Positions 18,523 to 64,000 of a DNA stretch of 64,000 bases are shown here, one piece after another. This DNA comes from a virus. The notes under the pieces are model-generated. The model saw nothing but the letters and a program-made list of their open reading frames with translations. It was not told the DNA's origin and searched no databases. The position numbers and the translations under genes are program-made. The DNA lies in the IMG/VR virus record IMGVR_UViG_3300027759_000077, positions 6,946 through 70,945 of that record, one strand, 5' to 3'. Within the stretch, counting starts at the first letter, position 1. The number at the start of each line of letters is the position of its first letter.

Positions 18523-19248
18523 TTAGCACTTGTATTCTGGATCGATATGCCACCCCATGGTGGTGAAATTAGCGTCTAGTTTTAGGTCAAAGCGATTGGC
18601 TAAATCTTGGTAGTTTTCAATAGAATGTGAGGTGTGCCAAACAATACCGGGGTAAGCAACTAACCTATCGGGGCCTATAATATTAAGCTTACCCATCTCA
18701 CCATCAAAAAAGTCGTCTACACAAGAGCCTATCAACACTTCGGTTGCCACGCCATTTAAAGATTGCATTCGCATCTTGTCTAAAATTATAGGGTGATACC
18801 ACTTCGCTGGATCTAATAAGACAATCTCGGTACGTAAAGGAAAAGAGGTAATACCCTCTTTACATGCCTCAGAAGCAATAGAAAAGCGCCCTAGTTTTAA
18901 AGATGCCTTACAGCTTTGTATCCACTTAAACTTGTCGATGCACATTCGTTGGGAAAGCTTTATCAAGTATTTGAAACGTCGGAAAAAAGCCCACTGAATT
19001 CCAAGGTGGAAAGCAACTAAATCGCCGCCAGCATGACCCAATCTTTGTGGGTTTGACCACAAAGTTACATCAGAGTATTTCTTTGTTAGCTCCATAAGTT
19101 CTTCGTAGCAATTTAAAGTTAAGCTTTTTGCAGAGCAGTCATCACTTATAAAAATGGGGACAGGGCCGTTGTGGGATCTGATCAGATTAATCTGAAGTTC
19201 CATTAAACGGGGGTAGTTAAAACACCCAATTACAACTCCTGTGTCCAT
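18523..19248 (-). CDS. GT-A fold glycosyltransferase-like protein
   Basis: VVIGCFNYP..., IFISDDCS, NPQRLGHAGG pattern resembling a GT2 N-terminus. Confidence 0.6.
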   Translation of the reverse strand: MDTGVVIGCFNYPRLMELQINLIRSHNGPVPIFISDDCSAKSLTLNCYEELMELTKKYSDVTLWSNPQRLGHAGGDLVAFHLGIQWAFFRRFKYLIKLSQRMCIDKFKWIQSCKASLKLGRFSIASEACKEGITSFPLRTEIVLLDPAKWYHPIILDKMRMQSLNGVATEVLIGSCVDDFFDGEMGKLNIIGPDRLVAYPGIVWHTSHSIENYQDLANRFDLKLDANFTTMGWHIDPEYKC

Positions 19249-19251
19249 GTC

Positions 19252-19614
19252 TTATCCTATAAAAGGGGAATCGCCTTGGTAGTCGGGACAAAAGACGCAT
19301 GATGTAATTTGGTCACTCACAACACCCCTTGTACATTGCCCATGTTTTTCACACTTGTGAATAAATTTTAAGGGGCAATGGCAGTTAGACCTTTGGATAA
19401 TTGGGCCAAGGCTAACGCATGGAAGACCACGGGGATTTTTTGATAGTTCGGGGGAATATTGGATTGCTCCTATCGGCCCACGTTCGGTAGGTTGCTTTCC
19501 CCAGTAAACAGACCACGTTGGACTGTAGTGGTATAGCCAGCATTGACGGCAATCAGCGGCTTGATAATATCTACCTGTAGTAACACGGTTACAAATACAT
19601 GGTCTTGCCTGCAT
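19252..19614 (-). CDS. Cys-rich hypothetical protein
   Basis: CICNR, CRQC, CHC, CEKHGQC, CVFCPDY. Confidence 0.65.
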   Translation of the reverse strand: MQARPCICNRVTTGRYYQAADCRQCWLYHYSPTWSVYWGKQPTERGPIGAIQYSPELSKNPRGLPCVSLGPIIQRSNCHCPLKFIHKCEKHGQCTRGVVSDQITSCVFCPDYQGDSPFIG

Positions 19615-20492
19615 TAAAAGTTTCCTCTTCGGATTAGAATGGATTCAATTCCCATAATTTCAGAAATTACAGGGTTTTTGGGTATCAGTGTAATATGCTT
19701 TAAGTACAAAAGTCCTTGTAAACAAACATAACAAAAATCAGATGCTGAGAAGTCAGCGAAAGCGTAAGGCTGAGGTGTCCAACCATCCACTTGATTGGCA
19801 CGGGCGTAAGGTATTACTCTTGTGTTCTTTATAAACTTAATATCCGTATTCCAATGGAAGCTTTCAAACCTAAAAAAAGTTGGAGTGTTTTTAGTTTTAA
19901 CAAATCCAGTAGAATTTCGTTTAGTAATTAGTGGCGTGTATGTGTAAGGAAAAACTTCTGCAACAGGGTGTGAGTTTGTCCATGCAAGTTTTTCAGCCGT
20001 ATATTCCGTAGTGGAGCTAAAGTTGAAAAACTTTGATTTTAAAGGCATTTCAACATTGATATCAGAAAAAGAAAAAAGAAACCTTCTTCCTGGGTCAAGA
20101 TAAGATGCATGGCCTGCATAAGGCAAAAGCAATTTGTAATTGTAGTAATAGCTTGTTGGGTCATAATTTATATTTGCAAGATTCTCAATAGGAGCAGGGA
20201 CTATAAATTTTTTGTTTTCTAAAACTAGAAAAGGATCTTTGCATTTAGCATTAGTCTTAAATGTAATTTCAAACATGGGGCTTGTTTTAGGAACAGTACA
20301 CTCCGCAGAACGTGCGCTGCTTTTAGTAGGTTCATCAGAACTTTTCAAACTTGTTTTTCTTTTCGTTACTTTAAAACCGGAGATGTAAAAGACCTTGGAC
20401 GGACAAGCTCCTACTGTGCCACCCTCGTAAGCATCAAATCCTTCGCCTGTATAGAATCCGGTCATTACAGGGTCGTAAGGTTTATCTGCCAT
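19614..20492 (-). CDS. Hypothetical virion-associated protein
   Basis: 292 aa, translationally coupled within the tail region. Confidence 0.55.
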   Translation of the reverse strand: MADKPYDPVMTGFYTGEGFDAYEGGTVGACPSKVFYISGFKVTKRKTSLKSSDEPTKSSARSAECTVPKTSPMFEITFKTNAKCKDPFLVLENKKFIVPAPIENLANINYDPTSYYYNYKLLLPYAGHASYLDPGRRFLFSFSDINVEMPLKSKFFNFSSTTEYTAEKLAWTNSHPVAEVFPYTYTPLITKRNSTGFVKTKNTPTFFRFESFHWNTDIKFIKNTRVIPYARANQVDGWTPQPYAFADFSASDFCYVCLQGLLYLKHITLIPKNPVISEIMGIESILIRRGNF

Positions 20493-20496
20493 GACG

Positions 20497-22986: not shown

Positions 22987-22994
22987 ACGAACTC

Positions 22995-25900
22995 CTAAAC
23001 GGAACCTGTGTGTTCAAAACCAAAACGGATAACATAATCTATCGGGGGTATAGCGGGTGGATTAAACCAGTTATGTATAAATTCTTTTGAATGCCCTAAG
23101 GGGCAAGCGTTTACATTTGACTCACAATTGTATTCGCTCTCATATATTTTAGTGCCATCATAATGATGAGTGTAATTGCATCCGGGATTCCATACGTCCC
23201 AAGGACTACAGCTTGAACGTAAAGTCGAAACGGAATTGCCTGTATTAGTACAATAACCGGTCGAACCAGGGTAAGCATTAGCTGAGCTAGTATAACAACC
23301 CGGAGCCCCCGGATAACTCATAGAATTTATAATGGGCTGGTTATATGAGTTTGTGTCCGGATAAGGGATTGGGTTTGGATGAAGGTTTGGATAGGGTAAC
23401 GGAGCCATATCAACATTGTATTTTACTTGCGAAATATAAGAAGTGTAAGAACTAAAAGATCCTTGATCTAAATGAAGAACAGCGTCACCTTTAAAGTTTG
23501 GATCGCCAATTTTAGGATTTTCACCATAACCTTTTTTAATACCAATTGGAGAACCAAAATAATTAAAAGAATTAAGCATTGAAATATTGTAATAAGACAA
23601 ATTAGTCGTGTCTCGGGTTCTATAATCATTAGACATATTATAATTACTATTATAATTAAAACCACCATAAGACTGACTTGTTGTATGAAAACCGTAGGGA
23701 GGTTCGAGAGTTGTTGATTGTAAACTTAAGCCTGATAAAGAATCACATAAAAACTTTTGCTCTAAAATTGGATCGTCTTTAGGAAAGTAAGTTCCCGTAG
23801 CCTTTATATTAACATACCCCGGTGTAAGTGATACATTGTTAGGCTCCATTTTAACTTTAATGCTTAAGATGGTACAAAGTGAATTTGTAAAAGAACCTGT
23901 AGCGACGGCAGTAGTAGATCGCCAACCATATTGATAATCATTTACTGAAGTGTAACTAGAATTAGAACCACTAGGATATATAAACTGCACAAAAGTATTT
24001 ACGGTTACAGGTGATGTCGTATGTGGTAATCCGTCATACCAAAAATAATCACAGGCAGTGGAGTATACAGGGTAGGAGTCATAGACTCGATAACCTATGC
24101 CTTTATAACCGTAAAGAACACTTCCGGGCCAATAGTAAATTAAATAGGGGGCTGCTGCTGATATTTTTGCAGAATACGAATCTGAAGCTTGCCTATAAAC
24201 GGCAGCAATATGCTCTGCGATTTCTTTGGGGTTTTTTAAAGAGTACGACAATCCAATTTTTACAAACCCCGGTTTTCCACTTTCGGAACCAGTAGTCATT
24301 GGTGGTCCGTTTGTTCTAACCCCATTGACTACATTAGAGCATTCAAACATTTGATGATTTTCAATACTTAACGTGTCGTGAAAACCTCTAGTTCCAAAAT
24401 ATGAAACGGGATATTTTTGCCCCAATTGAGAAGTATTGTACGGTGTGTTCCAATAGCCTTGGTAAATCCAACAAAGGTTTGATGGCTCTCTATCGTTAAA
24501 AGTATCTAAAACCAAAGTCCCAGCTTCTAAATAAACCGAGTTATCTAATAAGTAAAAACTGCTTTTTTGTTCTGGGATTGATAAGTTTTTAATCCAGCTA
24601 AGAGCGTCTTTATTGTTTTGAAAATTCGAAGCATCCCCACCTATTCCAAGAGTGCTCCAAAGATAAGGCTCAGTCATAAAAGTTTGAACTGGACCTCTGT
24701 CTTTGTCAAATAATATTCCAACGGTAGATTTTCCAACAGCAGGGTACATGTTGTTGTAATAGTCTTTTAGACCTTTAAAATCGATCTCAGACAAAATGCT
24801 ATTTAAATAAAGAGAAGAGTATGGGTTATACCATCCTTGGTAATAATACCAACCTAAAACACTTGGAGCATATGCAATTGAGTTACTTAGCTTAGCTAAA
24901 TGGTATAAAGCTTGATTAGCTTCTGATTGCTGTACAACTGAAGTATAAAATTCAGAGGGGGATGATTCCGGTATTAATTTAAACTCGTCTAATTTAACCG
25001 CCTGTTTTAAATTTAAAAACGAAGAAGGCATATATGAATAGCCATATGTCGCATAAAGCGTCATAGCGTATATGTTTTTGTAAGCACTTATTGGAAACTT
25101 ATAAGCTACTAATTTAGAAAAATCAGACGCAAGATAAAAATATTGTGGGTAACTACTATCTGAAACTTCATCTAAATTAAATTCCGAAACCGTTGTAACA
25201 CCTACAGTAGGATATCCGGGTATTGCGGGAGGAGGAGGAGAAGTCGATGTAGGTACGGGGTAAATGCGAACCATTGCGTCTGTTAAAGTAGACGGGTATT
25301 TAAACCCTCCATTTGGTATTAGTCCTTCCAAAGCAAATTGAGAAAAAAGAACTTTACTTTTTATTTTTCTTGTTGAAAGTATTGGGAGCCAATAATTTTG
25401 GCAGTAATAAGTGTAGTTGCCAGAATACAAATTTGAGTAGTAAGACAGCGCTCTATTATATAGCGGAAAGGGAAGTGTTATCTTTTCATCCGTTCCAATT
25501 ACTTTGTAAGATACTACAGCATCTGATGGTTTGTAATATGTTTCATAGCTTCCAGAGGTATCAACAGGATGCCAATATAATTGGCTTTTAAAATCACTTC
25601 GATGAGCTTTGTAATAAGGAGGATCTAAATCTTCAACAACGACTTTTGTTTGCGGGAAATAATAAGGCGGGTTAAAATATTGTCTTTTGTAAAGTTTAGC
25701 TTTCAACGTTCCGTTTAAACGAACCCTTACGGTTGCATTTCCCCAAGGGTAATAATAACTTGGAAACCCACATTGTTGAGGGTTAGCAGGATTTGCAGTA
25801 ATACAAACATTAGAAGTTCCATCTAATCCTGCACCCTGTTCAAGGTTTTGCTCTTCTGTAATAATGCTGTAATATTCAGACCCGTCGCCATTTACAGAAA

Positions 25901-39361: not shown

Positions 39362-42300
39362 TTATGCGCCTACACCTTCGGGTTTCTTTTCAGCAATAAC
39401 TTTGTTAGTACCATTAAGTTTTTGTAGTTCTATTAACATTCTTGCAAGACTTTGTTCCTGTATCTTTTTGAGTTCTACAGTCATAGGGTCATCGCCTAAC
39501 GCTGACACTTGAATTTTCTTGTATGCTTCTTCCACGGACGAAAACGAGGATTGGGATTTCATAGATCCCATCGAAGCCGCTACACCTTGTTTAGCCGATG
39601 CTATGTCATCTGCCTTTTTCTTTTTTGCAGCTTCCGCTTCTTCTTCGGGAGTCTTTTTCTTTTGTCCGGGAAGTTCAAATTTCGGTAATTTGAAATCAAA
39701 CTTAGGAAGCTTGAGGTCTTTAAAATCTGGCATGGGTGGAAGTTTAAATCCAAGACCGGTATCTATACCCTTGGGGTTATCCCGAGCAGAAGCTTGTTCC
39801 GCAGTAACTCCGTTGTCTCGATCTGTAACAGCTTGATTTCTAACCTTGGCTTGATTAGGATCTTGTTCAACAAGGAGTTGGTTTTCTAAAGCGTTTAACT
39901 TTCTGCCTTCTTCTTGAACCGTTCCTTCTCTCATAGACTTAGCGGCTTTTTTATCCATCTTCACGCCGTTTTTACCATACTCTAAATCGTTAGCGTCATT
40001 TTTAGATTTTAAAGCTACTTTACGTTGTTTCGCAGCTTCCGTTTCTAAAGCGTTAACCCTACCTTCTTTAGTTTTACCGCCTGTATCTGCAATGCCTTCG
40101 GCATACTTTTTCTCAGTACTTGTTTCACGTGAATTTTTATCGCCTTGGCTTTTAGCTTCGGCAGCTTTTATTGCAGCCTTTTCCCATAATCCTATAGCAA
40201 CAATACCAGCACCTAAGGCTAACGCAAACGCTGCAAGCATAGGATTAGCTGCAATAACAGCAATAGCGGCCTTTGCCATATTCGCAACATAGGTCCATGT
40301 CGATGCAACAGCAGCAGCAAAGGAGGTAACTAACCCTGCACACCATGTATAAAGCAATGTAAACAATCCACTTAACGAGCCTACGGTTGTAAAGAACCCT
40401 GCAACCGCCCCAAAGAGAGCTACAACAGAACCCACTAAACCCGAGAAAAATCCAATAACTGCCATAACCGTTCCACCAAACATAGCCCATATTCCGATGG
40501 CAGCACCAATAACTCCAACAAGACCAAATAAAACTTGTCCTAACATATTAAAAAATGGAGCTAATGGTGAGAAAAGACCGAGAATATAACCACCAATCGA
40601 AGCACCAATGCCTACAAAAAACCCGACGAAAGACGTAACAGCACCTAGCAAAGTTCCAACGACAGAAACAATAATTCCAACTCCCGTAGCTAAAGCAGAA
40701 ACTACAAAAGAAACACCACTCACTAACATGTTTAAAGCGGGTCCTAATAATCCAGCCTTATCTAAGATGGCTACAACTAAAACTCCAAACGCTACCAGTG
40801 GCATTGAAAGTAAAGAGAAGCCCGCTGCTAATCCTGTGATAATTGGAATTACAATTCCAAGGACTGGGGCAAACATGGTAAGGCCAGCAACAAAAAGTCC
40901 AACCCCTACTAAAAATTCAAGAGTCCCTTGATCAATGCTGTCAATAAATTTGGTAACTCCTGTTACTAAACCACCCATAACTCCTGTGCCGTTCTGAATG
41001 TCTTTTGCCCAACCTTGAATAATAGAAGAAGCTCTTAAGAACACGGGTATTAAACCAATGCCAATGCTTCCGGTTAATAAAGCGATAGAGCCTTGTAGGG
41101 TTGAAAACGTATCGGGACTAGCACCTTTAACAAAATTGCCAAGGGAATACATGGCTCCTTGAACGGCTTTACCCAAAGCCATGAAGGATCCACCAATAAC
41201 TCCAACCCTAGAATTTGCAATAAAATCTTTAACCCATGCTCCGAGGGGAGCTAAAGGATCCCCAGAAGAACTACCCATTGAGGTAGGTCTAGTTGCTGGA
41301 GGAGGAGTACCACCCCCAGAACCACCTTTGGAAGAACCGCCTTTAGACGAACCGCTTGAGCCACCTTTGGAAGAGCCACCTTTACTACCACCAGCGGTTG
41401 TGCCACTTGCAGCGTAAACAGGAGGTTTTTTAATCTTGCCGTCATTGATGTTATCTAAAAGGTCTTTGTTCTTTTCAGACTCAGAACGTTTAATAACACG
41501 TTCGCCCTTTTCTAACATGTAAGGTTGACCCTCAGGGGTCATTGCAGGGACAGTATCAGAACCCCTAGGTTTGAAAATCAAGTCGCTTAAGGATTTACTA
41601 TTGTCTTTTTTATTGCTTACATCGCCACCAAGAGCACGGTAACTGTTTTCAAATGTATCATCTGTATTCCAATTATTCTTAACCATCTCTTTGTTTGGTT
41701 TAGGCTTCCATTTTTTCTTAGGCTTAGCTTCACCAAAAATGTTATCGAATATATTGCCAAAGAACCCCTTCTTTTCAATATCGCCGCCACCAGAACGATA
41801 TTTGTTTTCAAAGTTGGTGTCTGTGTCCCAATTGTTTTTGGTCGGATGGTAATTAGTAGGGGGCTTCCATTTCTTTTTTGGTTTTGCCTTCCCGAAAATG
41901 CTGTTAAAGATGCCACCAAAAATACTGGGCTTTTCAACGGAAGTTCCGTCTGAAGCGTACCCAATAGTACCGCCCATGCTCTTATAAATATCAAGACTAT
42001 CTTTTGGTTTATCGAGGTCTTTGTCTAATTCTAAAGGTGGCGACGATGCAAGATCATAATTATCATCTAAAACATCATATTGTTTAGAAAGCCTTTCTCT
42101 GATTTCATCTTTTCTGTCTTCCGCATCTTCTCCCTCAAGTCCATCCCTTATTCTTTCTCCTAGTAATTGGTTAATCAATTTATTTCTTAGCCATTCTTTC
42201 GTTCTATCACCAGTACTTAAACCTGACGACAACCCTGCCCTTTCCTCCTCCTCTTCTTTTTCCTTAGCTATATCTTCCCAAAACTTTTTTTGATTTGGTG

Positions 42301-45300
42301 TATAATTGGCTTCTACTTCTTTCTGCGCAGCAGCTTCATCTTCCACTCTTTTGTCATCTTTATTTACATCGTAGTCGTCAAAATCTAACTCAAAAGGGTT
42401 TTCTTCAAAATCATTTGTATTTAGATCCCACTCCGAACCCATCTCTAAACCTTCTTGCGGACCCTGGTCATTTTCGTCTTCTAACGCTTCCGAAAAATCG
42501 GGGTCTGATAATTCGGGAGTTGCAATTTCTTCTGGTGCATTTACAACAGGAGGTTTAGAAACCGAAGTGGAACTCGGCTTAGACGTAGTGGGAGTTGCTG
42601 AAGATGTAGAAAAAACGGGCGAGTCAAGATCAGAAGAATCATCTGCATTTATAGTTTCGTAATTGTCACTGTCAAGTTCATAATCGTCATTAGCTATATT
42701 TTCTGCTGCAACTTCTTCTGGCTCTTCAATAGCATTTTGCTCAATGTACTCATCGGGTATTTCCTCAGCATCATCACCGATTTTTGTGGGATTTTTAGTT
42801 GGGGCACTTCCCCCTGCAAGTTCTGCTTCTACTTCCTCTAACTTAATAGCATGGTTTTCATCGTCCCACGCTTGACTTCTATTGACTTGAGCTTGTGCCT
42901 CATCGGCAGCATAATCAAAAGCCTCATCGTCACCTAAAATACCACTACCTTTAACACTCGAATCGTGTCCATAGCGAGGGGTTGGTTTTGATCCTCCTTT
43001 TGGAGCAGGGTTTGCAGTCGGACTTGCCGGTGCTCCTGTCGATGCGGGATTAACCGGTGCTGGCTTTTTCTTTGGCGGGGGAGTAGAACCTTTGTTTGGT
43101 ACTCCTCTTTGTGGAACGGGTGTTTCTTCTTCGTCATCATCGCTGTCTACAGCAACTGCAAATTTTTCTAATGCTTTAGCTGTAGCAACTAAAGCATCTC
43201 GTAAAAGCTGAGCTTTGATTTCTAGGTCTTGTAATTCTTTATTCCACAACTCTAGTTCTTCGGGGTCTAAAGAATCACCAAAGATACCTATGTGATTTGT
43301 AATCGAATCAATGGCAGTATTAACAGAATCATCAGCTTTGGTTAATGCTTTTCCAAAAAGGATAAGATCCTCTTCATCTTTTACATTAACATTTTTTGAA
43401 AACCCTTCTGCGTCTTTAGCATCGTCATGGGCTTTTTCAACCTTCTTGGTTGTTACACCCTCAACATGTTTTTGGAAAAAGCCTTTTTCATCACCAGGTT
43501 CTTTAGCGTCTTCTTGAACAGGTTCTTTATAGGCTTGACCCGAAAGACGATTCCATGTTTCGGCAATCGCTTCGCCAAGAGTAAGGGGGATTTGCTCTTT
43601 AAACTTATCTGTTGCAGGGGCTGTAGGATTCTTAATCTCAAACTTGTCTTTATCTTCGGCACTAGCTTCTTTAGTTTTAGCAGCGTCTTTAGTAGTAGCA
43701 TCTTTAGTTACTTCTGGTTCTTTATCAGCGTCTGCTTTTGTAGCACTGGCACTAGCAGCAGCGGCGGCAGAAGCGGCTTTAGCTGCTCTACGAGTTTCAT
43801 TTAACTGAGCTATTATAAGATTCCCATTAGCACGGGCAAGCTTTAAGAACAAAGGGTTAGCCGTTGCTTTTCCATTTTTTAATATTTCACTTGCGTATTT
43901 TTTAATCCCATCAAGCAATGCAACCAACTCGTCATCTGTAGAAGATTCCAATAGCTTTGAATCTATTCTTTTCGTTGCAAAATCGGGTTCTGCTGTATTT
44001 ACCGGTGCGGTTACGGGAGTTGACCCCGCTGTGACTATTGGAGGTGTTCCTACTACGGGTTCCGTCGTAGCTCCCGCTGTTGGAACAGGTCCCGCTGTAG
44101 ACCCTGCTGCTGCTGGATTAACGGGCGATGACCCTGCTGTAGAAGCGGGGGTAGCTGGGGTAACGGGCTTACCAGTAGATGCTTCTATTGCAGCACTACA
44201 GCGTGGGCATTTTACCTTTTTCCCTGCTGCCGAAATAGGTAGTTTGTACGTCGCTCCACAAGCTCCACACGTAACCGAAATAGCTTGTGGGGAAGAACCG
44301 CTTCCTGTGCCAGACGCTGCGGGTGCTTCGGGTGGAACTATCGATGATGTGGAAGTTGGAAAACTAAAAGCTAAAGGAGAAACTGGTTTTGGCCCAGATG
44401 CAGCCGCTGGCTTAGCTGCGGGTGTTGTAGCTGCGGGTTTCTTTTTTGGTTTCGGTGTAGCTGTAGGGTTTACTACGGGGGTATTAATACTGTTGAGTGT
44501 TTTTTCTTTTCTTTGTATCAAACTGTTTAAATAAGTACTAGCCGTTTTAATACCAGGGCTAGTGTCACTACCGTCAATATTGGCTTGTAATTCTTTTTCT
44601 AAACCTAGCTTGCTAGTAGCCTCTTTGATCATGTCGTCTAAGGTAGTAAGAATCAACCCAGACACTTGTGTCGTGTCTTCTTTATTTCCGACCTTAATTT
44701 TTTTAATACTTAATAATTCATTAAAATCTTTTCTTAACCGGTTAAGTTTTTTATTCGCAAGCTCAATTTTTTCTTTTATCTTGTCTTGTTTTTTCGTACC
44801 ACCTACATCGTAGAATCCCGCTAATGCTGCTCCACTCGCACTAAGCGCAAAAATAGAAGCTATTAATTTGGCAAGAAACGGTATGGAAGAATTACCGCCT
44901 TCAGTAGGACCAGCCGAAGGTGGAACTACAGGAGGCACGGCTGATGGTGCTACTACAGGTATATCTGGAACTACTGGTGGTACTATTGGAACTACGGGTG
45001 GAACTACAGGAACTATGGGCGGTACTTCAGCGGGTATTTCCGGTGGAACTATTGGGACAACAGGCGGGACTATTTGAATTGGGGGAGGGACTACTTCAGG
45101 GGTCGGGACTATACCGTTAGCTGCATTAAATTGTTCAATATGATGTTGACGAAACTCTGGGCTTAACCGGGGGCTTCTCCAAGTTTCGGGGGCTATTGGC
45201 TCTGCGCCCTTTTGACCGTGTAGTCCTTTTTTATCTTTTGCTGCTTGATTTCTAGCAGCGGCAAAGGCAGCTTCATCTTGAGGCTCTACCATGTACGGCA

Positions 45301-48300
45301 TGCCGTGACCTTCAGCAACCATCTGCTGACTTATCGACTGACCCGAATCAGCGTCAATTAAATCGCCAACTCTACGATTATGGGAAACCCCTTTAAGCTT
45401 TAACTTTAATTTTTTGTTGGTAAGTAATTTAGCAAGCGCCGCTTTTGCTGCTTTAGCTCCGGGCTGTTCTTGCCACTTGTCGCCCTTAGACTCAGGGGCA
45501 TCGTAGCCGTACATACGAAGACTAAGTTGTTGGGTAGAACCGTCGGCAAATTTAATCGTTAACTTTACGGTATCGCCGTCAGTAACACTGTCGACAAGGG
45601 CAAAAGGTAAGTCGGCAAGAGCTACGTTTTTATTTACATTTGGCGGGGGTGTAGTTGGGGTGTTACCAAAAACAACAGAACCAGATTGGTTTGCAGCCGC
45701 TCCACCACCCAAACCTCCTGCGGGAGCCTGTGTATCTGTCAGGGGCATTGAAGGTGCATTGAAGGCTGCAAGGGCGGCTGCTTGTTGCTGCTGGTTTCTT
45801 ACTGCTTGGATTTGTGCAGAATGTTTTGCAGCCGCTGCTTTCTTGGCTGCTTCGACTTGAGCGGGAGTTGAAATAGGCTTTGATTGTGGTTCTACTCTCG
45901 GAGGTAATCCAGCGACTTCTCTCTCTTCTTCCTGTTTCTCTATTACATCTCTAACACGGTCTTTTTCTACTTGAGCTTCTACCCTTGAGTCTTGAATGTG
46001 ACTCTCAAGAGGTTTACTTTCAGCACCCCCAGCCATGCCTACCATTAAACTGCCTAACACGGCAGCAGAAATGACGGGGACTTTGAGGCTTTTAAATGCT
46101 CTGGTTATAAAAGCTTGAAGAGGCTTGGTAACATTAATAGTGGATAAAGCAAATTGAACGTTTTTATCTTTAGGGGCTTTAGCTTTAATAAGGTCCGGTA
46201 TATTGGCTCCGGAAAACATCTTAATGACTGCCGCCATAATCAATTCTTGCGGGTCGGATAAATAACCCTTTTTAACTTTTTTACCATTAGAATCTGTAGT
46301 CGTATCCGAAAACGCATTATCATCAACGCCTTCACCAGACGTAACAATTGCTTGTAATAGTTCTTTTTGACCGCCTTCAAGACTCACAGGAGAGCCTGTT
46401 TTATTCAGTAGTCCGTGAAGTACTTCCTCTAACAGGGAAGCTCGGACTTGTGCTAGTTGTGCTTCATTGCCTTTTTCAAAAGCACTAGGAGGAACGGCAA
46501 GCTCTAAACCCTGCGAAAATTGATCGCTACCTTTTTCTTTTATACGGTGGACTGCACCCGAATAAGAAGCACCTTTATTTTTTCCTGTCCCCTCTATTGA
46601 CTCACCAGCATGAATAGAAATAACTTTAAAAAGTTTTGGAATACTAATTCCTAATTGTTTTCCTAAGCTATCAATTAAACTTGAAACATTGTCTTCAAAA
46701 TTCTCCTCCTGCCCCTCTTCAATAGCATCTTTATTACGTGCCTCTATACTGTTTGGATAATAATCTTTTACATCTTCGGGTTTAAATTTAGCAAACGATC
46801 CAACTAAAGGAGCTAAAATACTTTCTAACACACTCATAGCAGAAACAAAAATATCATCTCCCGAAACACGTTCTTTAAAGTTTTGTGTTGATTGCGATTT
46901 AATACCACCAATATTTTCCCTAATACCCTTCATAAACTCAGCAAGAGCACCAACATTAGAATCTATTTTTGCATTGTCTTCCGCTTTAGTTTTAGGCCCT
47001 CTAGTATCTAATGACTCGGGAAGAGCTTGCATCTGTTCTAAAATTTTAAGAAAGACCAGCCCTTCTGCTGCTACGTCACCGCTAGCATCATGAGCTACGG
47101 ACTCAACACCAAAATGTTCTGCAAGAACCTCAATAGTAAAGTCGGTCTTGCCTTCATAGTCGTTTCGTTTATCTTTCGCCGCATTAGCTCTAGCAACATT
47201 GGCATCTTCTGGAAACTCAGCATCATCCAATCGTTTTGCGTGAACTTCGTTTAAAGCGTCTTGTATTTCGCTGTGAGGGTCTTTTCCCAGAAGGACATTA
47301 GCTTTCTTTTGAAAAGTAATTAACTGTTTTAATAAAGAAGCTAAATCTACTGTTTTAGTAACACTAGAATCATTTCGTTCTTGTTCGGTACTAGGAAGTA
47401 TTCTCTTAAGCTGATTTTTTAAAGGATCAGTTTCATCTTCATGGCCTGCATTTTTACCCAGTTTTTGATCAAATGAGCTTTTAGCCACCCCAACCATTCC
47501 ACCCTCTTTACCTTCAAATTCATCAAGAAAACTACTTAAGATAGTAGCAGCTTCATCTTTACTAACCTTAGGGGCAGCGTTATACGCATTACGAAGATTA
47601 TCAAACTTATCATTTTCGGCAAGAGAGTGAGTATCTGGCTTATCCACAAAAATATTTAGACTTTTAACAACGTTACCCGTAGCTTTATCAATGACACTAG
47701 CTGCAACTTGTATGATTTCAGCGGATCTAAAATACTCATCTGTGCCCACCTTAGTACCACTTTTAGATGCAGTTTCGGTATCAACCACTATGATATATTT
47801 CTCAGAAATATCAGATTGTTTGACAGCCTCAGTAAATTCTTGCTTATCTTTCTTTGATCCCTTTTTTTTCTTACCTACCTTATTATCTTCTGGGGCTAAA
47901 GGATTTTTGGGGTCAGGATTGATAATGGCATCTACGTCTTTTTTACCGGATTTTCTTTTAGACTTTATTGAAGACCAAAGCCCATCCATTCGTTCTTCAC
48001 CCAGCATCGTAACGGAATATTTCTTGTCATAAAAAGTTTGTAAGTCTTCAATAAACTTTACGTAATAAGATTTTTCTTCTTCAATTCGATCTTTATCATC
48101 AGACTTTTTATAATTAGGATCCGCATCTTTAATTTTGTTTTCTTCTTTGGTTTTCTTTTTTTGCTCGATACGCTCCAGTTGCTCAGGGGTCTTAGCTTTG
48201 TTTCTAATACTTTCCATTGCAGTTAAGTGTGCGGATAAAACAGATTCTTTTAAACCTAAGTAAGACATGTACTCTTGTAAAGGCTGCGAGTAAGAAGCAG

Positions 48301-50323
48301 ATACACCAAGGGTATCTCCTAAAGCCTCTCGTTCTTTTTCTGCCATCCGTTCTCTTGGTTTCCAATCACTATCATCGTTATCCTTCTTGATACCAGCACC
48401 GGTATGTTTTACATCTTCTGCAAAACCACCTTTTTTAATACCTTGCATACGTCTTAAATGGGCGCTTAATTCTTCTTCTTTAGCGAATAAAAAATCAACG
48501 TAGGGGGCAATGCGATCTTCCCCAAATTCGTCAATCATCGTGTGCGTATCACCAGCATCTTTAGCAGCGTTTTTTCGGTCTTGGTACGGTTTTGCAAGAG
48601 GAGCTTGCTTTGCTCTACGCTCGTCTCGTTCAGTCTTTGTTTGTAATTCTCTGGCTTTTTTTTGTAGGTCGTAAAATGTTTTTGCCTTGTTTACTTTTAG
48701 CTGCAAAAAAGCAAGGTACGGAGCAATCTTTTCGAGATCATCGTTTTCTTGTTTTGTATTGCCAGTACCTAAATCAATAACCAGGCTTTCTTTTTTCTTT
48801 CGTGCTGTTTCACCAGCATAAAATTCTTCCGAGTGTTGCTTCTTTTTTTGAAGCCATGCAGTGTACAAGGCTAAAGAAGCCGCTTGGTCTGAAGCAGCGG
48901 TTTTAGAAGCGTCGCTAGTAGGGTCTAGTAAACTAGCGGCTTTGGCAGCTTTGGCATCGGCATAATACTTTTGGGTGTCGGCAGCTTTTTTATTGAGGTA
49001 TTCTAAATGGGCTTTTTCCCCCTCAGCTATGCGGGCTTTTTCAGAAGTGTTTTCGGGAGTACCGGGGGTTGCCTTTTTCAACTTTACGCTTGCGTGATAC
49101 TCTTTTGTTAATTGGGATTTGTCCGTAAGATATTTTTCATGTGCAACTTTGTCTTCAGCACGACGTGCTTCCTCTTCCGCAAATTCGGCAGTCCCAACGG
49201 TTTTTTTAGCGTTTTTTATTTTTTCATAATAGTTTTTAGATATTTCTGCCTTATTAGCAAGGTATTCTAATTGAGATTTTTCTTCGTCTTTTAAACGATC
49301 TTTTTCACTATCGTTTTCGGGAGTGCCGGGAGTACTCTTTTTTAACTTTATGTTTTCATGATATTCTTTTGTTAATTTAGATTTTTGGGCAAGGTATTCT
49401 AAATGGGCTTTATTATCTTCATTACGATGCTTTTGTTCTTCAGCGTTTTCTACTGTTCCAATTGTGTTTTTAGCGGTCTTTATTTTTTCGTAATAGTCTT
49501 TAGTCATTGCCGCTTTTTTAACAAGGTAAGCTAAATGATCTTTTTCTTCGTCTTTTAAACGAGATTGTTCCGCTGTGTTTTCTGTCGTTCCAATTGTATT
49601 TTTAGCGGTCTTTATTTTTTCGTAATAGGCTTTGGTCATCTCAGCTTTTTTAACAAGGTAAGCTAAATGATCCTTCTCTTCATCTTTTAAGCGAGCTTGT
49701 TCCGCTGTGTTCTCAGGTGTGCCGGGGGTAGCTTTCTTTGCCTTGACCGCATTGTGATAGTCTTGTGTTAGTTTTGTTTTGTCAGCAAGATATTTTTCAT
49801 GTGAGGCTTTGTCTTCAGCACGACGTTTTTCTTCTTCTGCAAACTCGGCAGTACCCGCAGTTGTTTTTGCGGTTTTTATTTTTTCGTAATAGTTCTTCGT
49901 CATCTCCGCTTTGTCACGTAAAAACTGTTCGTGATCTTTAAGGCGCTGAGCATCGTCTTTCGTGGAATCTGACGTTCCTGTTTCTTTTGCGATTTGTTGC
50001 TTGATACGGATTTTACCAAGTTCACGGAAAGCGAATTGGTTAAAGTGATCGTGATCTGATTGACGATCCATGCGGTGAGGAGATGAAGATCCGCTAGGTT
50101 TACTAAAGTGTGACCTAGCGGAATGCATTATAAATGCGAGGTGGGAAAACTCGATGCCAATGGTTTTGGCAGATTCTTGAATAGCATCTAGCTGAACACT
50201 AAAGCGGGAGAGAGAAGCGGACATCTGAGAAAAGTTCTCAAATATCTTTCGGACAGCTTCCTGTCCTGTATAAGGAACTTGGGAAAGTTTGGGGTTCTTG
50301 TGTCCGTCACCTTGACTTGCCAT
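39362..50323 (-). CDS. Giant multidomain tape measure protein (3653 aa)
   Basis: Follows the frameshifted tail chaperone. Long Gly/Ala/hydrophobic C-terminal tract and GSDTVPAM..GERVI motif; embedded DEDDh, SNase and Zn-ribbon domains. Confidence 0.8.
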   Translation of the reverse strand: MASQGDGHKNPKLSQVPYTGQEAVRKIFENFSQMSASLSRFSVQLDAIQESAKTIGIEFSHLAFIMHSARSHFSKPSGSSSPHRMDRQSDHDHFNQFAFRELGKIRIKQQIAKETGTSDSTKDDAQRLKDHEQFLRDKAEMTKNYYEKIKTAKTTAGTAEFAEEEKRRAEDKASHEKYLADKTKLTQDYHNAVKAKKATPGTPENTAEQARLKDEEKDHLAYLVKKAEMTKAYYEKIKTAKNTIGTTENTAEQSRLKDEEKDHLAYLVKKAAMTKDYYEKIKTAKNTIGTVENAEEQKHRNEDNKAHLEYLAQKSKLTKEYHENIKLKKSTPGTPENDSEKDRLKDEEKSQLEYLANKAEISKNYYEKIKNAKKTVGTAEFAEEEARRAEDKVAHEKYLTDKSQLTKEYHASVKLKKATPGTPENTSEKARIAEGEKAHLEYLNKKAADTQKYYADAKAAKAASLLDPTSDASKTAASDQAASLALYTAWLQKKKQHSEEFYAGETARKKKESLVIDLGTGNTKQENDDLEKIAPYLAFLQLKVNKAKTFYDLQKKARELQTKTERDERRAKQAPLAKPYQDRKNAAKDAGDTHTMIDEFGEDRIAPYVDFLFAKEEELSAHLRRMQGIKKGGFAEDVKHTGAGIKKDNDDSDWKPRERMAEKEREALGDTLGVSASYSQPLQEYMSYLGLKESVLSAHLTAMESIRNKAKTPEQLERIEQKKKTKEENKIKDADPNYKKSDDKDRIEEEKSYYVKFIEDLQTFYDKKYSVTMLGEERMDGLWSSIKSKRKSGKKDVDAIINPDPKNPLAPEDNKVGKKKKGSKKDKQEFTEAVKQSDISEKYIIVVDTETASKSGTKVGTDEYFRSAEIIQVAASVIDKATGNVVKSLNIFVDKPDTHSLAENDKFDNLRNAYNAAPKVSKDEAATILSSFLDEFEGKEGGMVGVAKSSFDQKLGKNAGHEDETDPLKNQLKRILPSTEQERNDSSVTKTVDLASLLKQLITFQKKANVLLGKDPHSEIQDALNEVHAKRLDDAEFPEDANVARANAAKDKRNDYEGKTDFTIEVLAEHFGVESVAHDASGDVAAEGLVFLKILEQMQALPESLDTRGPKTKAEDNAKIDSNVGALAEFMKGIRENIGGIKSQSTQNFKERVSGDDIFVSAMSVLESILAPLVGSFAKFKPEDVKDYYPNSIEARNKDAIEEGQEENFEDNVSSLIDSLGKQLGISIPKLFKVISIHAGESIEGTGKNKGASYSGAVHRIKEKGSDQFSQGLELAVPPSAFEKGNEAQLAQVRASLLEEVLHGLLNKTGSPVSLEGGQKELLQAIVTSGEGVDDNAFSDTTTDSNGKKVKKGYLSDPQELIMAAVIKMFSGANIPDLIKAKAPKDKNVQFALSTINVTKPLQAFITRAFKSLKVPVISAAVLGSLMVGMAGGAESKPLESHIQDSRVEAQVEKDRVRDVIEKQEEEREVAGLPPRVEPQSKPISTPAQVEAAKKAAAAKHSAQIQAVRNQQQQAAALAAFNAPSMPLTDTQAPAGGLGGGAAANQSGSVVFGNTPTTPPPNVNKNVALADLPFALVDSVTDGDTVKLTIKFADGSTQQLSLRMYGYDAPESKGDKWQEQPGAKAAKAALAKLLTNKKLKLKLKGVSHNRRVGDLIDADSGQSISQQMVAEGHGMPYMVEPQDEAAFAAARNQAAKDKKGLHGQKGAEPIAPETWRSPRLSPEFRQHHIEQFNAANGIVPTPEVVPPPIQIVPPVVPIVPPEIPAEVPPIVPVVPPVVPIVPPVVPDIPVVAPSAVPPVVPPSAGPTEGGNSSIPFLAKLIASIFALSASGAALAGFYDVGGTKKQDKIKEKIELANKKLNRLRKDFNELLSIKKIKVGNKEDTTQVSGLILTTLDDMIKEATSKLGLEKELQANIDGSDTSPGIKTASTYLNSLIQRKEKTLNSINTPVVNPTATPKPKKKPAATTPAAKPAAASGPKPVSPLAFSFPTSTSSIVPPEAPAASGTGSGSSPQAISVTCGACGATYKLPISAAGKKVKCPRCSAAIEASTGKPVTPATPASTAGSSPVNPAAAGSTAGPVPTAGATTEPVVGTPPIVTAGSTPVTAPVNTAEPDFATKRIDSKLLESSTDDELVALLDGIKKYASEILKNGKATANPLFLKLARANGNLIIAQLNETRRAAKAASAAAAASASATKADADKEPEVTKDATTKDAAKTKEASAEDKDKFEIKNPTAPATDKFKEQIPLTLGEAIAETWNRLSGQAYKEPVQEDAKEPGDEKGFFQKHVEGVTTKKVEKAHDDAKDAEGFSKNVNVKDEEDLILFGKALTKADDSVNTAIDSITNHIGIFGDSLDPEELELWNKELQDLEIKAQLLRDALVATAKALEKFAVAVDSDDDEEETPVPQRGVPNKGSTPPPKKKPAPVNPASTGAPASPTANPAPKGGSKPTPRYGHDSSVKGSGILGDDEAFDYAADEAQAQVNRSQAWDDENHAIKLEEVEAELAGGSAPTKNPTKIGDDAEEIPDEYIEQNAIEEPEEVAAENIANDDYELDSDNYETINADDSSDLDSPVFSTSSATPTTSKPSSTSVSKPPVVNAPEEIATPELSDPDFSEALEDENDQGPQEGLEMGSEWDLNTNDFEENPFELDFDDYDVNKDDKRVEDEAAAQKEVEANYTPNQKKFWEDIAKEKEEEEERAGLSSGLSTGDRTKEWLRNKLINQLLGERIRDGLEGEDAEDRKDEIRERLSKQYDVLDDNYDLASSPPLELDKDLDKPKDSLDIYKSMGGTIGYASDGTSVEKPSIFGGIFNSIFGKAKPKKKWKPPTNYHPTKNNWDTDTNFENKYRSGGGDIEKKGFFGNIFDNIFGEAKPKKKWKPKPNKEMVKNNWNTDDTFENSYRALGGDVSNKKDNSKSLSDLIFKPRGSDTVPAMTPEGQPYMLEKGERVIKRSESEKNKDLLDNINDGKIKKPPVYAASGTTAGGSKGGSSKGGSSGSSKGGSSKGGSGGGTPPPATRPTSMGSSSGDPLAPLGAWVKDFIANSRVGVIGGSFMALGKAVQGAMYSLGNFVKGASPDTFSTLQGSIALLTGSIGIGLIPVFLRASSIIQGWAKDIQNGTGVMGGLVTGVTKFIDSIDQGTLEFLVGVGLFVAGLTMFAPVLGIVIPIITGLAAGFSLLSMPLVAFGVLVVAILDKAGLLGPALNMLVSGVSFVVSALATGVGIIVSVVGTLLGAVTSFVGFFVGIGASIGGYILGLFSPLAPFFNMLGQVLFGLVGVIGAAIGIWAMFGGTVMAVIGFFSGLVGSVVALFGAVAGFFTTVGSLSGLFTLLYTWCAGLVTSFAAAVASTWTYVANMAKAAIAVIAANPMLAAFALALGAGIVAIGLWEKAAIKAAEAKSQGDKNSRETSTEKKYAEGIADTGGKTKEGRVNALETEAAKQRKVALKSKNDANDLEYGKNGVKMDKKAAKSMREGTVQEEGRKLNALENQLLVEQDPNQAKVRNQAVTDRDNGVTAEQASARDNPKGIDTGLGFKLPPMPDFKDLKLPKFDFKLPKFELPGQKKKTPEEEAEAAKKKKADDIASAKQGVAASMGSMKSQSSFSSVEEAYKKIQVSALGDDPMTVELKKIQEQSLARMLIELQKLNGTNKVIAEKKPEGVGA
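48950..49950 (-). repeat. 132-bp (44-aa) repeat, about 8 copies, in the TMP N-terminus
   Basis: KDEEKDHLAYLVKKAxMTKxYYEKIKTAKNTIGTxEN units; AACAAGGTAAGCTAAATGATC recurs with a 132-bp period. Confidence 0.8.
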
Positions 50324-62460: not shown

Positions 62461-62659
62461 AGCTAAATTACTTCCTACTTGTTCCTACCAAAGTTTACAG
62501 CACCCCCGTATTCAAACGGGCCTGCCCTCATATTTGCCTTTGTATATGTAACTGATTTGACACCCCCATCCCCCCTTATTAACTGCTTGTGTAGTTGAGT
62601 GTGTGGTGTGTGTTGAATTGAATTGTTACGTACTGAATTGAAATATAAAGGAGTTCGAT

Positions 62660-63187
62660 ATGAGAAATGTAATCGCCTTGAATGTGTTGTTGGTGTTGGT
62701 AGTAAGTGCTCAAGCTAGTGGGGCTTATTGGTTAATTAGCAAGTCAGAACCAAAGGTAATAGCTGAAGTTAAGGTAGCTCATAAGTTTCCAGTTACTAAA
62801 GAAGGTTTAAAATTACCTAATGAATCATATACCGTGTGTCATGTGATCGGGGAAGCTGATCTAAAGGATGGAAACAATGTTCCGCTTTGGTCTTTGTTAG
62901 ATACAGATCAAGGTGTTGTATTCATTACTCATGGTGGTAAAGATGGAAAAATTATAGGTATTAAATATTTCGACGATGACATGCTTGTAGATGATGCAGT
63001 TCGGATATTGAATGATCGCTATGAGGTTAAGATAGATCGAGTTATTTGTTGCTACCCAAAACAAGTAGCTGAAACATCAAAGACTGGAGTAATGCTTTCG
63101 TGTGCTTTCCATGATGGCTGTGTGTACTGCGATGCTGCACGTGGGGATGGTGCAGTTGTAAGGGTGTGGGTATCTAGCCCTGACTAA
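62660..63187 (+). CDS. Secreted protein with possible His/Cys (caspase-like) dyad
   Basis: AGGAG RBS; signal peptide; VVFITHGG...RVICCYP. Confidence 0.6.
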   Translation: MRNVIALNVLLVLVVSAQASGAYWLISKSEPKVIAEVKVAHKFPVTKEGLKLPNESYTVCHVIGEADLKDGNNVPLWSLLDTDQGVVFITHGGKDGKIIGIKYFDDDMLVDDAVRILNDRYEVKIDRVICCYPKQVAETSKTGVMLSCAFHDGCVYCDAARGDGAVVRVWVSSPD

Positions 63188-63193
63188 ACAATT

Positions 63194-63265
63194 GCAGAGG
63201 ACTCCTCGACAGGGGAGTAATGCACTATGTGATCTGATCTAGGTCATGTAACGGTTCCAAGTCCG
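63194..63265 (+). ncRNA. Twister ribozyme (circularly permuted, P5-type-like)
   Basis: GCA-GA-GGA, P1 CUCCUC/GGGGAG, U^AA, P2 UGC/GCA, T2 AC/GU, 10-bp P3, A, P4 CGG/CCG with loop UUCCAAGU, T1 UCC/GGA. The conserved twister core positions are present and both pseudoknots pair. Confidence 0.85.
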
Positions 63266-63270
63266 GCATT

Positions 63271-63307
63271 CAGCTACTTACGCTTTGTAGGTAGCTGTGT
63301 TTGTTTA
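63271..63307 (+). terminator. 11-bp hairpin plus U-rich tract downstream of the ribozyme
   Basis: CAGCTACTTAC-GCTTT-GTAGGTAGCTG then TGTTTGTTT. Confidence 0.5.
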
Positions 63308-63326
63308 TAGATCAAGGAGTTTTATT

Positions 63327-63932
63327 ATGTCTATTGTATTTGTTTGCATGGTTTGTAATCACGAATCTTATCTTTGCAATTGCGGAGATAATTCAGAGTT
63401 TACAGAAGTTGAAGTGTTAGATGAGTGTGAAGGTTCTGTAAGCGGATGCTGTGAAGATGTGCTGTGTGCTGGTTGTGGTAAAGAAGAGTGCTTCTGTGCT
63501 TTTATAGACTTAGTCGAGAGTGACTGGGCCGAGAATGTTTCTGATTGCGATACTGTAGAGCTAGAAGATGAGGACTTTATCTATGCATATGATGCAGAAG
63601 ATGTAGTTGATGTTTGTGACTCATGCAATCAGCAGGGATGCAACGGGCCTAATGAACGAGGGTTCTGCTTAGAGAAGGCATCGGATGAAGAGTACCAGGA
63701 CATGCTTCAAAGGAAGTATTTTCAAGAAAAGGTTGAACCCATAGCTGTTGCAGTTGTACCTATGTGGGTCGAATCATTGATGGTAGTGATGATGATCTTA
63801 AGCTTCTTTGGTTTAGTGATCGACATCGCTACGGGGAAGAACAATAACCCTGTGCTAGTGACGGGGTTTTACTTGTTCTGTGCGTACTTGGTTGTTACGT
63901 ATGGTGCAGTGATCATCTGGTTCTTGTGCTAA
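63327..63932 (+). CDS. Acidic Cys-rich protein with two C-terminal TM helices
   Basis: Likely start MSIVFV (AGGAG RBS); repeated CxxC..C motifs; hydrophobic C-terminus. Confidence 0.65.
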   Translation: MSIVFVCMVCNHESYLCNCGDNSEFTEVEVLDECEGSVSGCCEDVLCAGCGKEECFCAFIDLVESDWAENVSDCDTVELEDEDFIYAYDAEDVVDVCDSCNQQGCNGPNERGFCLEKASDEEYQDMLQRKYFQEKVEPIAVAVVPMWVESLMVVMMILSFFGLVIDIATGKNNNPVLVTGFYLFCAYLVVTYGAVIIWFLC

Positions 63933-64000
63933 TCAATGGTAAGTTAGTTCGTTTGTTTTTTCTTAATAAGCCTTTGCGTGTTGCAGAGGCTTTGTTCTTT

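What the first reader, a model, noticed from the sequence alone, without database searches (positions are those of the whole stretch)
63194..64000. Possible ribozyme-bracketed gene unit (ribozyme-punctuated array; candidate circular-RNA system)
Seen in sequence: about 50 nt after the next stop codon (63932) the same opening recurs, TTGCAGAGGC at 63981-63990 versus TTGCAGAGGA at 63192-63201, and is cut off by the window edge. The match is only 9 nt, so a second copy is a prediction. Inference: two twisters would excise the Cys-rich membrane-protein ORF as a unit with a 5'-OH and a 2',3'-cyclic phosphate. Those are the ends RtcB ligates (established; the basis of engineered Tornado circRNA vectors). 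A ligated circle would pair copy-2 T1 (GGC) with the copy-1 loop (UCC), a mismatch that could disfavour re-cleavage. Alternatively, the ribozymes delimit swappable gene cassettes in a variable early region. I do not know of such a system described in a temperate phage.
Basis: partly seen in the sequence, partly recalled or inferred. Interest (0 to 1): 0.85.

Follow-up and report, generated by a model that had tools for sequence, protein, structure and literature searches.

The report
One twister ribozyme, not a bracket
This phage carries one genuine self-cutting twister RNA in front of a small cysteine-rich membrane-protein gene, but the supposed second copy behind the gene is an ordinary terminator-like hairpin, so the gene is not bracketed by ribozymes here.

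Summary
The 9-nt repeat is real: TTGCAGAGG occurs exactly twice in the window, at 63192 and 63981. Its reading as a second twister fails.

- **Contig end.** Base 64000 is the last base of the 70,945-base virus record, so the record itself cannot show what follows.
- **What 63981-63990 is.** It is the loop end and 3' arm of a hairpin at 63968-63992, followed by a T-run. This hairpin belongs to a conserved intergenic family of 7 copies, with 69 of 70 cells paired.
- **Closest relative.** L015 is 92.4% identical up to base 64000. It then runs on into a T-run, AAGGAG and the ATG of the next gene, with no twister.
- **The upstream element.** 63193-63266 is a genuine type-P5 twister. It scores 30.2 bits, below Rfam's 37.6 cut-off, but both pseudoknots are compensated and covariation over 17 copies is strong.
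- **Arrays elsewhere.** Relatives do carry twister arrays, with 2, 3 and 10 copies per record. A syntenic relative brackets a 47-aa gene just upstream of the Cys-rich gene.
- **Prior knowledge.** This arrangement has been in print for phages since 2011 (PMC3088659), and this scan has noted it before on other DNA.
- **Circular RNA.** No RNA ligase was found and no RNA data were available.

The parts
62660..63187 (+). Upstream gene, 175 aa. It has a hydrophobic N-terminus and no Pfam or PHROG family. Stop TAA at 63185-63187.
   Evidence: ORF list. No family. 31% identical to the 181-aa gene at the same place in L004.
63193..63266 (+). Type-P5 twister ribozyme. P2 is 63194-96 with 63221-23. T1 is 63199-201 with 63256-58. 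P1 is 63202-07 with 63212-17. The predicted cut lies between U63218 and A63219. T2 is 63224-25 with 63261-62. The P3 hairpin is 63226-63250. P4 is 63252-54 with 63263-65.
   Evidence: RF02684 at 30.2 bits (cut-off 37.6), E 0.00038 in 1 kb and 0.025 in 64 kb. Subfamily model R1 gives 68.3 bits, but this sequence was in the model. Over 17 copies, 97.5% of cells pair and 15 of 23 pairs change on both sides.
63271..63309 (+). Hairpin (63271-63297, 11-12 bp) plus T-rich run (63298-63309), directly behind the twister. It is terminator-like. It is present behind all 5 twisters of this phage group.
   Evidence: Terminator scan, folds, module alignment A5.
63314..63319 (+). Shine-Dalgarno AAGGAG, 7 nt before the ATG at 63327.
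   Evidence: Read. Invariant in the module alignment.
63327..63932 (+). Cys-rich protein gene, 201 aa. The N-terminal half is variable with CxxC motifs. The C-terminal half is conserved and hydrophobic, probably two membrane helices.
   Evidence: 8 relatives plus itself. Alignments. No Pfam or PHROG family.
63968..64000 (+). Conserved intergenic hairpin (63968-63992) plus T-rich run (63993-64000, cut by the contig end).
   Evidence: Terminator scan. Fold at -17.8 kcal/mol, z -2.85. Family of 7 copies with 69 of 70 cells paired, against at most 57% when slid. L015 continuation.

Best explanation
The stretch holds one twister ribozyme module and one ordinary hairpin junction, not a ribozyme bracket.

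The module at 63193-63319 is a type-P5 twister, then a terminator-like hairpin with a U-run, then a Shine-Dalgarno site. It sits between the 175-aa gene and the Cys-rich gene. Inferred mechanism: on a transcript that crosses the junction, the twister cuts itself between U63218 and A63219.
- The upstream message then ends in the 6-bp P1 hairpin with a 2',3'-cyclic phosphate.
- The downstream message starts with a 5'-OH. Its first bases can pair with GCAUU at 63266-70, next to the P3 and P4 hairpins.
- Both products would thus have structured, nuclease-resistant ends, and the two genes would be uncoupled in stability and translation.

The element after the Cys-rich gene (63968-64000) is a different, repeated junction: a conserved hairpin plus U-run. 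In relatives it is followed within about 35 nt by the ribosome-binding site and start of the next small Cys-rich gene. It most likely acts as a partial intrinsic terminator or 3'-end stabiliser.

Both kinds of junction are repeated, similar sequences between small, variable genes. They also look like the places where gene cassettes are gained and lost.
For: Twister (shown):
- All conserved core letters of RF02684 are present. The two departures are compensated in the pseudoknots: GGA with UCC in place of GGG with CCC, and AC with GU in place of GC with GC (read against the printed consensus).
- Over 17 copies from 9 loci, 97.5% of cells pair, against 26-45% in slid controls. 15 of 23 pairs change on both sides. 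T1 and T2 each have one doubly changed pair, seen in copy L009a.
- Nine of these 17 copies pass Rfam's own cut-off, at 38.1-43.9 bits.

One copy only (shown): Rfam scans of the window and of the first 7.2 kb, R1 scan, and the whole record, which gives 1 match.

The second site is a hairpin (shown).

Sequence beyond the end (by homology): L015 is 92.4% identical over 539 nt up to base 64000, then continues with a T-run, AAGGAG and ATG. The same holds in L005 and L004. A Logan contig of run X3 runs on from 63949 into the same hairpin type.

Cassette variation (shown):
- Window: 175-aa gene, twister, Cys gene.
- L004: 181-aa gene, twister, 47-aa ORF, twister, Cys gene.
- L005 and L015: small ORF, twister, Cys gene.
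- The X3 contig repeats the module with 205 other letters between the copies.

Processing role (established proposal, not shown here): PMC3088659 and PMC6765202, passages read.
Against: - Self-cleavage was not tested and cannot be tested with these tools.
- The window copy scores below Rfam's gathering threshold (30.2 against 37.6).
- No RNA run holds this stretch, so nothing is known of transcripts, ends or cleavage.
- The sequence after base 64000 of this very phage was not seen. The argument rests on relatives, the closest being 92% identical over a 1254-nt contig.
- Whether the hairpins terminate transcription is untested. If the host is a Flavobacteriales bacterium (weak hint), rules for terminators and ribosome-binding sites taken from E. 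coli may not hold.
- The hairpin alignment has only 7 copies. By shuffling, 9 of 500 shuffles reach the observed covariation score, and only 2 pairs change on both sides.
Confidence: 0.8

Rival explanations
1. A second twister begins at 63981 and continues beyond the contig end. The two ribozymes excise the Cys-rich gene as a unit with 5'-OH and cyclic-phosphate ends, and RtcB closes it into a circular mRNA.
For: The 9-nt motif occurs only twice in the window, on the same strand, in two neighbouring intergenic gaps. Twister pairs and arrays that bracket genes exist in relatives. The own sequence beyond 64000 is unseen.
Against: The motif is the 3' arm of a conserved hairpin whose GAGG covaries with its partner and reads GGGG or TGGG in relatives. 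L015, L005 and L004 go from this hairpin into a ribosome-binding site and the next gene, or into another hairpin of the family first. R1 finds no twister there in any of them. G003 has only 2 twisters, both upstream of the Cys-rich gene. No RtcB was found in 0 of 1 own and 0 of 5 related phage records.
Confidence: 0.04
2. The twister-like element at 63193-63266 is a decayed or inactive copy. The working parts of the junction are only the hairpin, U-run and ribosome-binding site.
For: It scores below Rfam's cut-off. In L004 a similar hairpin, U-run and SD junction stands behind the Cys-rich gene without a recognisable twister, so the junction can exist without one.
Against: Every conserved core letter is kept, and both pseudoknot changes are compensated. 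P1 and P3 keep pairing through many double changes across copies that are 71-84% identical. That is the pattern of selection on the fold, not of decay.
Confidence: 0.08
3. The repeated hairpins are mainly DNA-level recombination or regulatory cassette boundaries (combined terminator and promoter elements). The twister is a passenger of one such boundary.
For: Loop letters GTGTTGCA are conserved beyond what pairing needs. Gene content differs between relatives exactly at these junctions.
Against: No promoter was tested or convincingly matched. The sigma-70 scan found none at the junctions. This reading does not exclude the RNA roles, so it is more an addition than a rival.
Confidence: 0.08

Closest known systems
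Type-P5 twister self-cleaving ribozyme (Rfam RF02684, clan CL00120)
   Same: Same order of helices (P2, P1 closed by a loop, UAA cut site, optional P3, P4 with the CCAAG loop). Same conserved letters and both pseudoknots.
   Different: The window copy is below the gathering score. The subfamily uses GGA:UCC and AC:GU in the pseudoknots and a long P3. Cleavage is untested.
Clustered hammerhead ribozymes flanking genes in prophages (Perreault et al. 2011, PMC3088659; passages read)
   Same: Self-cleaving ribozymes in the gaps between phage genes, flanking single genes or short blocks. They are proposed to cut long transcripts into gene-length mRNAs, and circular products were considered there.
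   Different: The ribozyme class differs (twister, not hammerhead). In this window there is one ribozyme, not a flanking pair. That paper reports that no spliced or circular product was detected.
Twister arrays in phage operons noted earlier in this scan (for example e1-5891544, e1-6065180; AI notes) and seen here in G001 (10 copies) and G002 (3 copies)
   Same: Same ribozyme type, same place between a stop codon and the next ribosome-binding site, on phage contigs.
   Different: The window's phage has a single copy, followed by a terminator-like hairpin that I did not see behind the twisters in the L014 sequence; L009's junctions I placed from ORF coordinates only.
Engineered ribozyme insulators (RiboJ) and Tornado circular-RNA vectors
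   Same: A ribozyme followed by a hairpin in front of a ribosome-binding site resembles RiboJ. Two twisters flanking a payload resemble Tornado.
   Different: Those are man-made. Here there is no second ribozyme, no ligase evidence and no RNA data.
Intrinsic (Rho-independent) terminator
   Same: A G+C-containing stem of 10 bp, a short loop and a T-rich tail directly behind a stop codon region.
   Different: The T-run is interrupted. The next gene follows at once without a recognised promoter. Function is untested and the host is unknown.

Membership tests
Twister ribozyme, type P5 (RF02684): element at 63193-63266 | Helices P2, P1 and P4 in the P5-permuted order | tested here: met
   cmscan alignment. 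RNAalifold recovers P2, P1, P3 and P4. 100% of cells pair in P2, P1 and P4 over 16 distinct rows.
Twister ribozyme, type P5 (RF02684): element at 63193-63266 | Conserved core letters (GCAGAG, UAAUGC, CGGU..CCAAG..CCG) | tested here: met
   All are present in the printed alignment. The two departures lie in pseudoknot positions.
Twister ribozyme, type P5 (RF02684): element at 63193-63266 | Pseudoknots T1 and T2 | tested here: met
   T1 pairs in 100% of cells and T2 in 96.9%. Each has one pair changed on both sides, in copy L009a. The positions of T1 and T2 are from my recall of the twister fold.
Twister ribozyme, type P5 (RF02684): element at 63193-63266 | Score at or above Rfam's gathering threshold | tested here: not met
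   30.2 bits against 37.6. Infernal does not score pseudoknots, so the compensated changes count as mismatches. Nine of the 17 aligned copies pass at 38.1-43.9 bits.
Twister ribozyme, type P5 (RF02684): element at 63193-63266 | Site-specific self-cleavage giving a 2',3'-cyclic phosphate and a 5'-OH | not testable with these tools
   No RNA run holds the stretch.
   Untestable in the own record, because the contig ends. In homologous spacers of L015, L005 and L004 these elements are absent and R1 gives no hit.
Ribozyme-bracketed gene unit or array | Two or more ribozymes on one strand flanking a gene | tested here: not met
   1 match in the whole 70.9-kb record. The feature is met in relatives: G003 has 2, G002 has 3 and G001 has 10.
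Ribozyme plus RtcB circular-RNA system | A ligase for 5'-OH and cyclic-phosphate ends, and back-junction RNA | tested here: inconclusive
   Pfam RtcB: 0 of 1 own and 0 of 5 related phage records. RNA_ligase PF09414: 0 of 3. PF09511: 0 of 3, but the control was silent. The host genome is unknown and could supply RtcB. No RNA data.
Intrinsic terminator (63968-64000 and 63271-63309) | G+C-containing stem followed by a U-run | tested here: met
   Pattern scan found 3 sites against 1.1 expected, including both of these. Termination itself was not tested.

The most novel reading that the evidence does not exclude
The twister, hairpin and ribosome-binding-site module could be a mobile cassette boundary that does two jobs. 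It would process the message, and it would supply the homology by which small genes are swapped in and out. Where two modules flank a gene, as with the 273-nt unit around the 47-aa membrane peptide in relative L004, the two half-ribozymes left on the excised RNA could reassemble into one nicked twister. The nick could then be closed by the reverse reaction or by a host RtcB, giving a tiny circular mRNA. Nothing I found excludes this for the relatives. In this window there is only one module, so at most the cassette-boundary half of the idea can apply.
Probability: 0.06. Interest if true: 0.7.

Novelty: new member of a known kind. Interest (0 to 1): 0.18.

Why it matters
It matters little as a discovery. 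It is one more twister between two phage genes, an arrangement in print since 2011 and noted many times in this scan. The useful results are these:
- A high-scored prediction, a ribozyme-bracketed gene and possible circular-RNA system, is removed.
- A sub-threshold Rfam hit is shown to be a genuine twister whose pseudoknot changes are compensated. This illustrates why this subfamily is under-called.
- The phage group shows a tidy case of gene cassettes (small ORF plus twister) present or absent at ribozyme and hairpin junctions. That could serve anyone studying what phage ribozymes are for.

Tried and rejected
- **Reading beyond base 64000 in the own genome.** Impossible, because the window end is the record end. 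The record's first 7.2 kb do not continue it.
- **Close relatives by DNA.** The phage GenBank collection gave no match. An exact 32-nt twister pattern in viral contigs gave 0.
- **Relatives by single proteins in viral contigs.** The 201-aa, 175-aa and 894-aa proteins all gave none. The alignment of 8 proteins then worked.
The Logan and ENA contigs that carry the closest protein relatives (P0002 and P0003, 70-74% identical) could therefore not be fetched.
- **Sequencing runs.** No RNA holder was listed, and no run held half or more of the sampled words. Laying four DNA contig sets gave partial relatives only, and no contig bridged the window end. No statement on expression, cleavage or back-junctions can be made.
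- **A possible decayed twister behind the Cys-rich gene of L004.** The hairpin, U-run and SD part aligns well, but the part upstream aligns only weakly and R1 gives no hit. I rejected it as unproven.
- **A sigma-70 promoter within the junctions.** None was found by the scan. My by-eye -35/-10 readings were inconsistent between copies, so I dropped them.
- **N4-like phage.** I rejected this on the PHROG hits to ordinary portal, head and tail genes and on the integrase.
- **Literature.** Searches found no paper on twister pairs making circular mRNAs in phages. PMC11662667 has no passage on phages, with 0 occurrences. The supplementary figures of PMC3088659 on clustered ribozymes may bear on how common bracketed genes are.

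Full report
**The observation.** TTGCAGAGG has exactly two exact matches in the window on both strands, these two. With one mismatch allowed there are 28, against 13.5 expected. The Cys-rich ORF runs 63327-63932 (ATG start; one search lists the longer GTG frame from 63297). The window is G000:C1:6946-70945 of a 70,945-base linear virus record, so base 64000 is the end of the contig. The start of the record is not a continuation: it holds minus-strand genes and no twister.

**The upstream element is a real twister.**
- At gathering thresholds Rfam finds nothing in the window.
- With E-value reporting, the only credible hit is Twister-P5 (RF02684) at 63193-63266. It scores 30.2 bits against a cut-off of 37.6, with E 0.00038 in 1 kb and 0.025 in 64 kb.
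- The printed alignment shows all conserved letters.
- The two departures lie where, by my recall of the twister fold, the pseudoknots T1 and T2 form. Both are compensated: GGA with UCC instead of GGG with CCC, and AC with GU instead of GC with GC.
- I collected 17 copies of this subfamily from the window and 8 other loci and aligned them.
- RNAalifold recovers P2, P1, P3 and P4, with 13 of 19 pairs changed on both sides somewhere.
- With T1 and T2 added by hand, 97.5% of 363 cells pair, against 26-45% when the partners are slid by 1-3 columns. 15 of 23 pairs change on both sides, and 0 of 500 shuffles reach any observed measure.
- Copy L009a changes T1 (G:C to C:G), T2 (A:U to G:C) and P2 together.
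- Nine of the 17 copies pass Rfam's own cut-off, at 38.1-43.9 bits.
- Cleavage itself was not tested.

**The 'second opening' is a hairpin arm.** The terminator scan lists 63968-63992 (11 pairs, 3-nt loop, tail TGTTCTTT) and also 63271-63297 directly behind the twister. The last 76 nt fold into that hairpin at -17.8 kcal/mol, z -2.85. The motif TTGCAGAGGC is the end of the loop plus the 3' arm.

**What lies beyond the end, by homology.**
- The Cys-rich protein has 8 relatives in the large protein collection.
- An alignment of 8 proteins found three viral loci (L003 and L004, which are the same sequence, and L005). A closer alignment of 5 found one metagenome contig, L015.
- L015 is 92.4% identical to window 63462-64000 over 539 nt, ending exactly at base 64000. 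It runs on for 114 nt.
- Those 114 nt are the rest of the T-run, AAGGAG, and the ATG of a small Cys-rich gene.
- L005 shows the same layout behind its Cys-rich gene, and the same hairpin recurs behind two further genes. L004 has two such hairpins in tandem, and L007/L008 have one.
- In 6 of 6 copies whose downstream sequence I read from those calls, the hairpin is followed by a ribosome-binding site and start codon or by another hairpin of the family. None is followed by twister elements.
- Seven copies align without gaps. 69 of 70 cells pair, against at most 57% when slid, and two pairs change on both sides.
- The window's GAGG reads GGGG or TGGG in the others, each matching its own 5' arm. 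The likeness to the twister's GCAGAGG is therefore not conserved.
- A covariance model built from the 17 twisters (R1) finds one copy in the window and none in L002. It finds none behind the Cys-rich gene in L004, L005 or L015, at E up to 10.
- Over whole records R1 finds 1 in the own record and 2 in G003. G003 is the 94.7-kb syntenic relative that IMG/VR classes as having direct terminal repeats, with CheckV completeness 77%. Both of its copies lie upstream of the Cys-rich gene.
- A Logan contig of run X3 runs on from 63949 into the same hairpin type.

**Ribozyme-bracketed genes exist, but elsewhere.**
- In L003/L004, two twisters (9426-9499 and 9703-9767) flank a 47-aa hydrophobic ORF directly upstream of the Cys-rich gene. 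The predicted cuts would free a 273-nt unit.
- L014 has three twisters, each starting at or just behind a stop codon and ending 10-20 nt before the next start.
- L009 has six in 3 kb, between seven consecutive genes. Its whole record has ten.
Perreault et al. [quoted passage not shown] They proposed processing into gene-length mRNAs, raised spliced or circular products, and reported detecting neither (PMC3088659, passages).
- A 2019 review repeats the processing proposal for hammerhead and twister, and notes the link with phage genes (PMC6765202, passages).
- Earlier notes of this scan list many twister arrays in phage operons on other DNA. These are unchecked AI notes. They agree with what I saw in G001 and G002.

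**How the module probably works (inferred).** The window's junction reads as follows:
- stop codon at 63185-87
- twister at 63193-63266
- hairpin at 63271-63297
- U-run
- AAGGAG at 63314-19
- ATG at 63327

The same order, with covarying hairpin arms, stands behind all 5 twisters of this phage group. A cut at U63218/A63219 would leave the upstream RNA ending in the P1 hairpin with a cyclic phosphate. The downstream RNA would start with a 5'-OH whose first five bases can pair with 63266-70 beside P3 and P4 (fold of the 3' product). Structured ends of this kind are known, from general knowledge of bacterial mRNA decay, to slow exonucleases and 5'-end-dependent RNase E. I therefore read the module as an mRNA-processing and insulating junction. 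In four of the five copies the upstream stop codon overlaps the twister's first two bases. A terminating ribosome would cover P2 and P1, so a link between translation and cleavage is possible but unexamined.

**Cassette variation.** The order is portal gene (minus strand), a gene of about 900 aa, then small genes, in the window, L004 and L005. Between the 900-aa gene and the Cys-rich gene the three differ:
- The window has the 175-aa gene and one twister.
- L004 has its 181-aa homologue (31% identity), a twister, the 47-aa ORF and a second twister.
- L005 has only a 52-aa ORF and one twister.

The X3 contig repeats the module with 205 other letters between the copies. It is a comparison, not a demonstration of recombination.

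**Circular RNA.** Nothing supports it here. There is only one ribozyme. No RtcB was found in the own record or in 5 related records, and no PF09414 ligase in 3 records. The PF09511 search was uninformative because its control was silent. No RNA run holds the stretch. The host is unknown. The same 94.7-kb contig as G003 is filed in a Flavobacteriales genome bin, which is only a weak hint.

**Verdict.** This is one genuine twister at a gene junction of a probably temperate phage (integrase present), followed one gene later by an ordinary conserved hairpin. The bracket and the circle are not supported. The finding is a new member of a known kind and of low interest.

Noticed in passing
L004 9426-9767 (same as L003; record G003 67656-67997): Two twisters flank a 47-aa hydrophobic ORF. 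The predicted cuts would free a 273-nt unit carrying a ribosome-binding site and the ORF. The two leftover half-ribozymes could reassemble into one nicked twister.
   Followed up: partly
L009 160-3085 minus strand (record G001 17485-24289): Six twisters lie between seven consecutive genes in 3 kb, and ten in the whole 98-kb record. By ORF coordinates each starts within about 2 nt of the preceding stop codon and ends about 15 nt before the next start.
   Followed up: partly
window 62461-62659; L005 9244-9434; L004 8793-8881: The spacer behind the ~900-aa gene is conserved between the three phages, including a C-rich stretch. No ORF or Rfam family was found. It could be a promoter region or a structured RNA.
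   Followed up: no
L004 10445-10592: Behind the Cys-rich gene of L004 there is a hairpin, U-run and SD junction like the one that follows twisters, but no recognisable twister precedes it. It may be a decayed copy, which is unproven.
   Followed up: partly
window 63327-63932 and relatives P0002-P0009: The Cys-rich protein family has a conserved C-terminal hydrophobic half and an N-terminal half that varies greatly in length (174-325 aa in all). It has many CxxC pairs and no Pfam or PHROG family. Neighbouring small genes in relatives are also Cys-rich.
   Followed up: partly
window 39362-50323 minus strand: A 3653-aa ORF lies within the structural gene block. I first took it for an N4-type virion RNA polymerase, then dropped that idea. 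I did not analyse it.
   Followed up: no
L016 (genome collection contig of 94,700 bases): A contig of the same length as virus record G003, with the same match identity (37%) and the same residues matched, is filed in a Flavobacteriales metagenome-assembled genome. This is a weak hint to the host, or a binning artefact.
   Followed up: no
L008 5291-5379: A further, more divergent twister (44 bits with R1) lies 3.8 kb from the first one in that contig.
   Followed up: no
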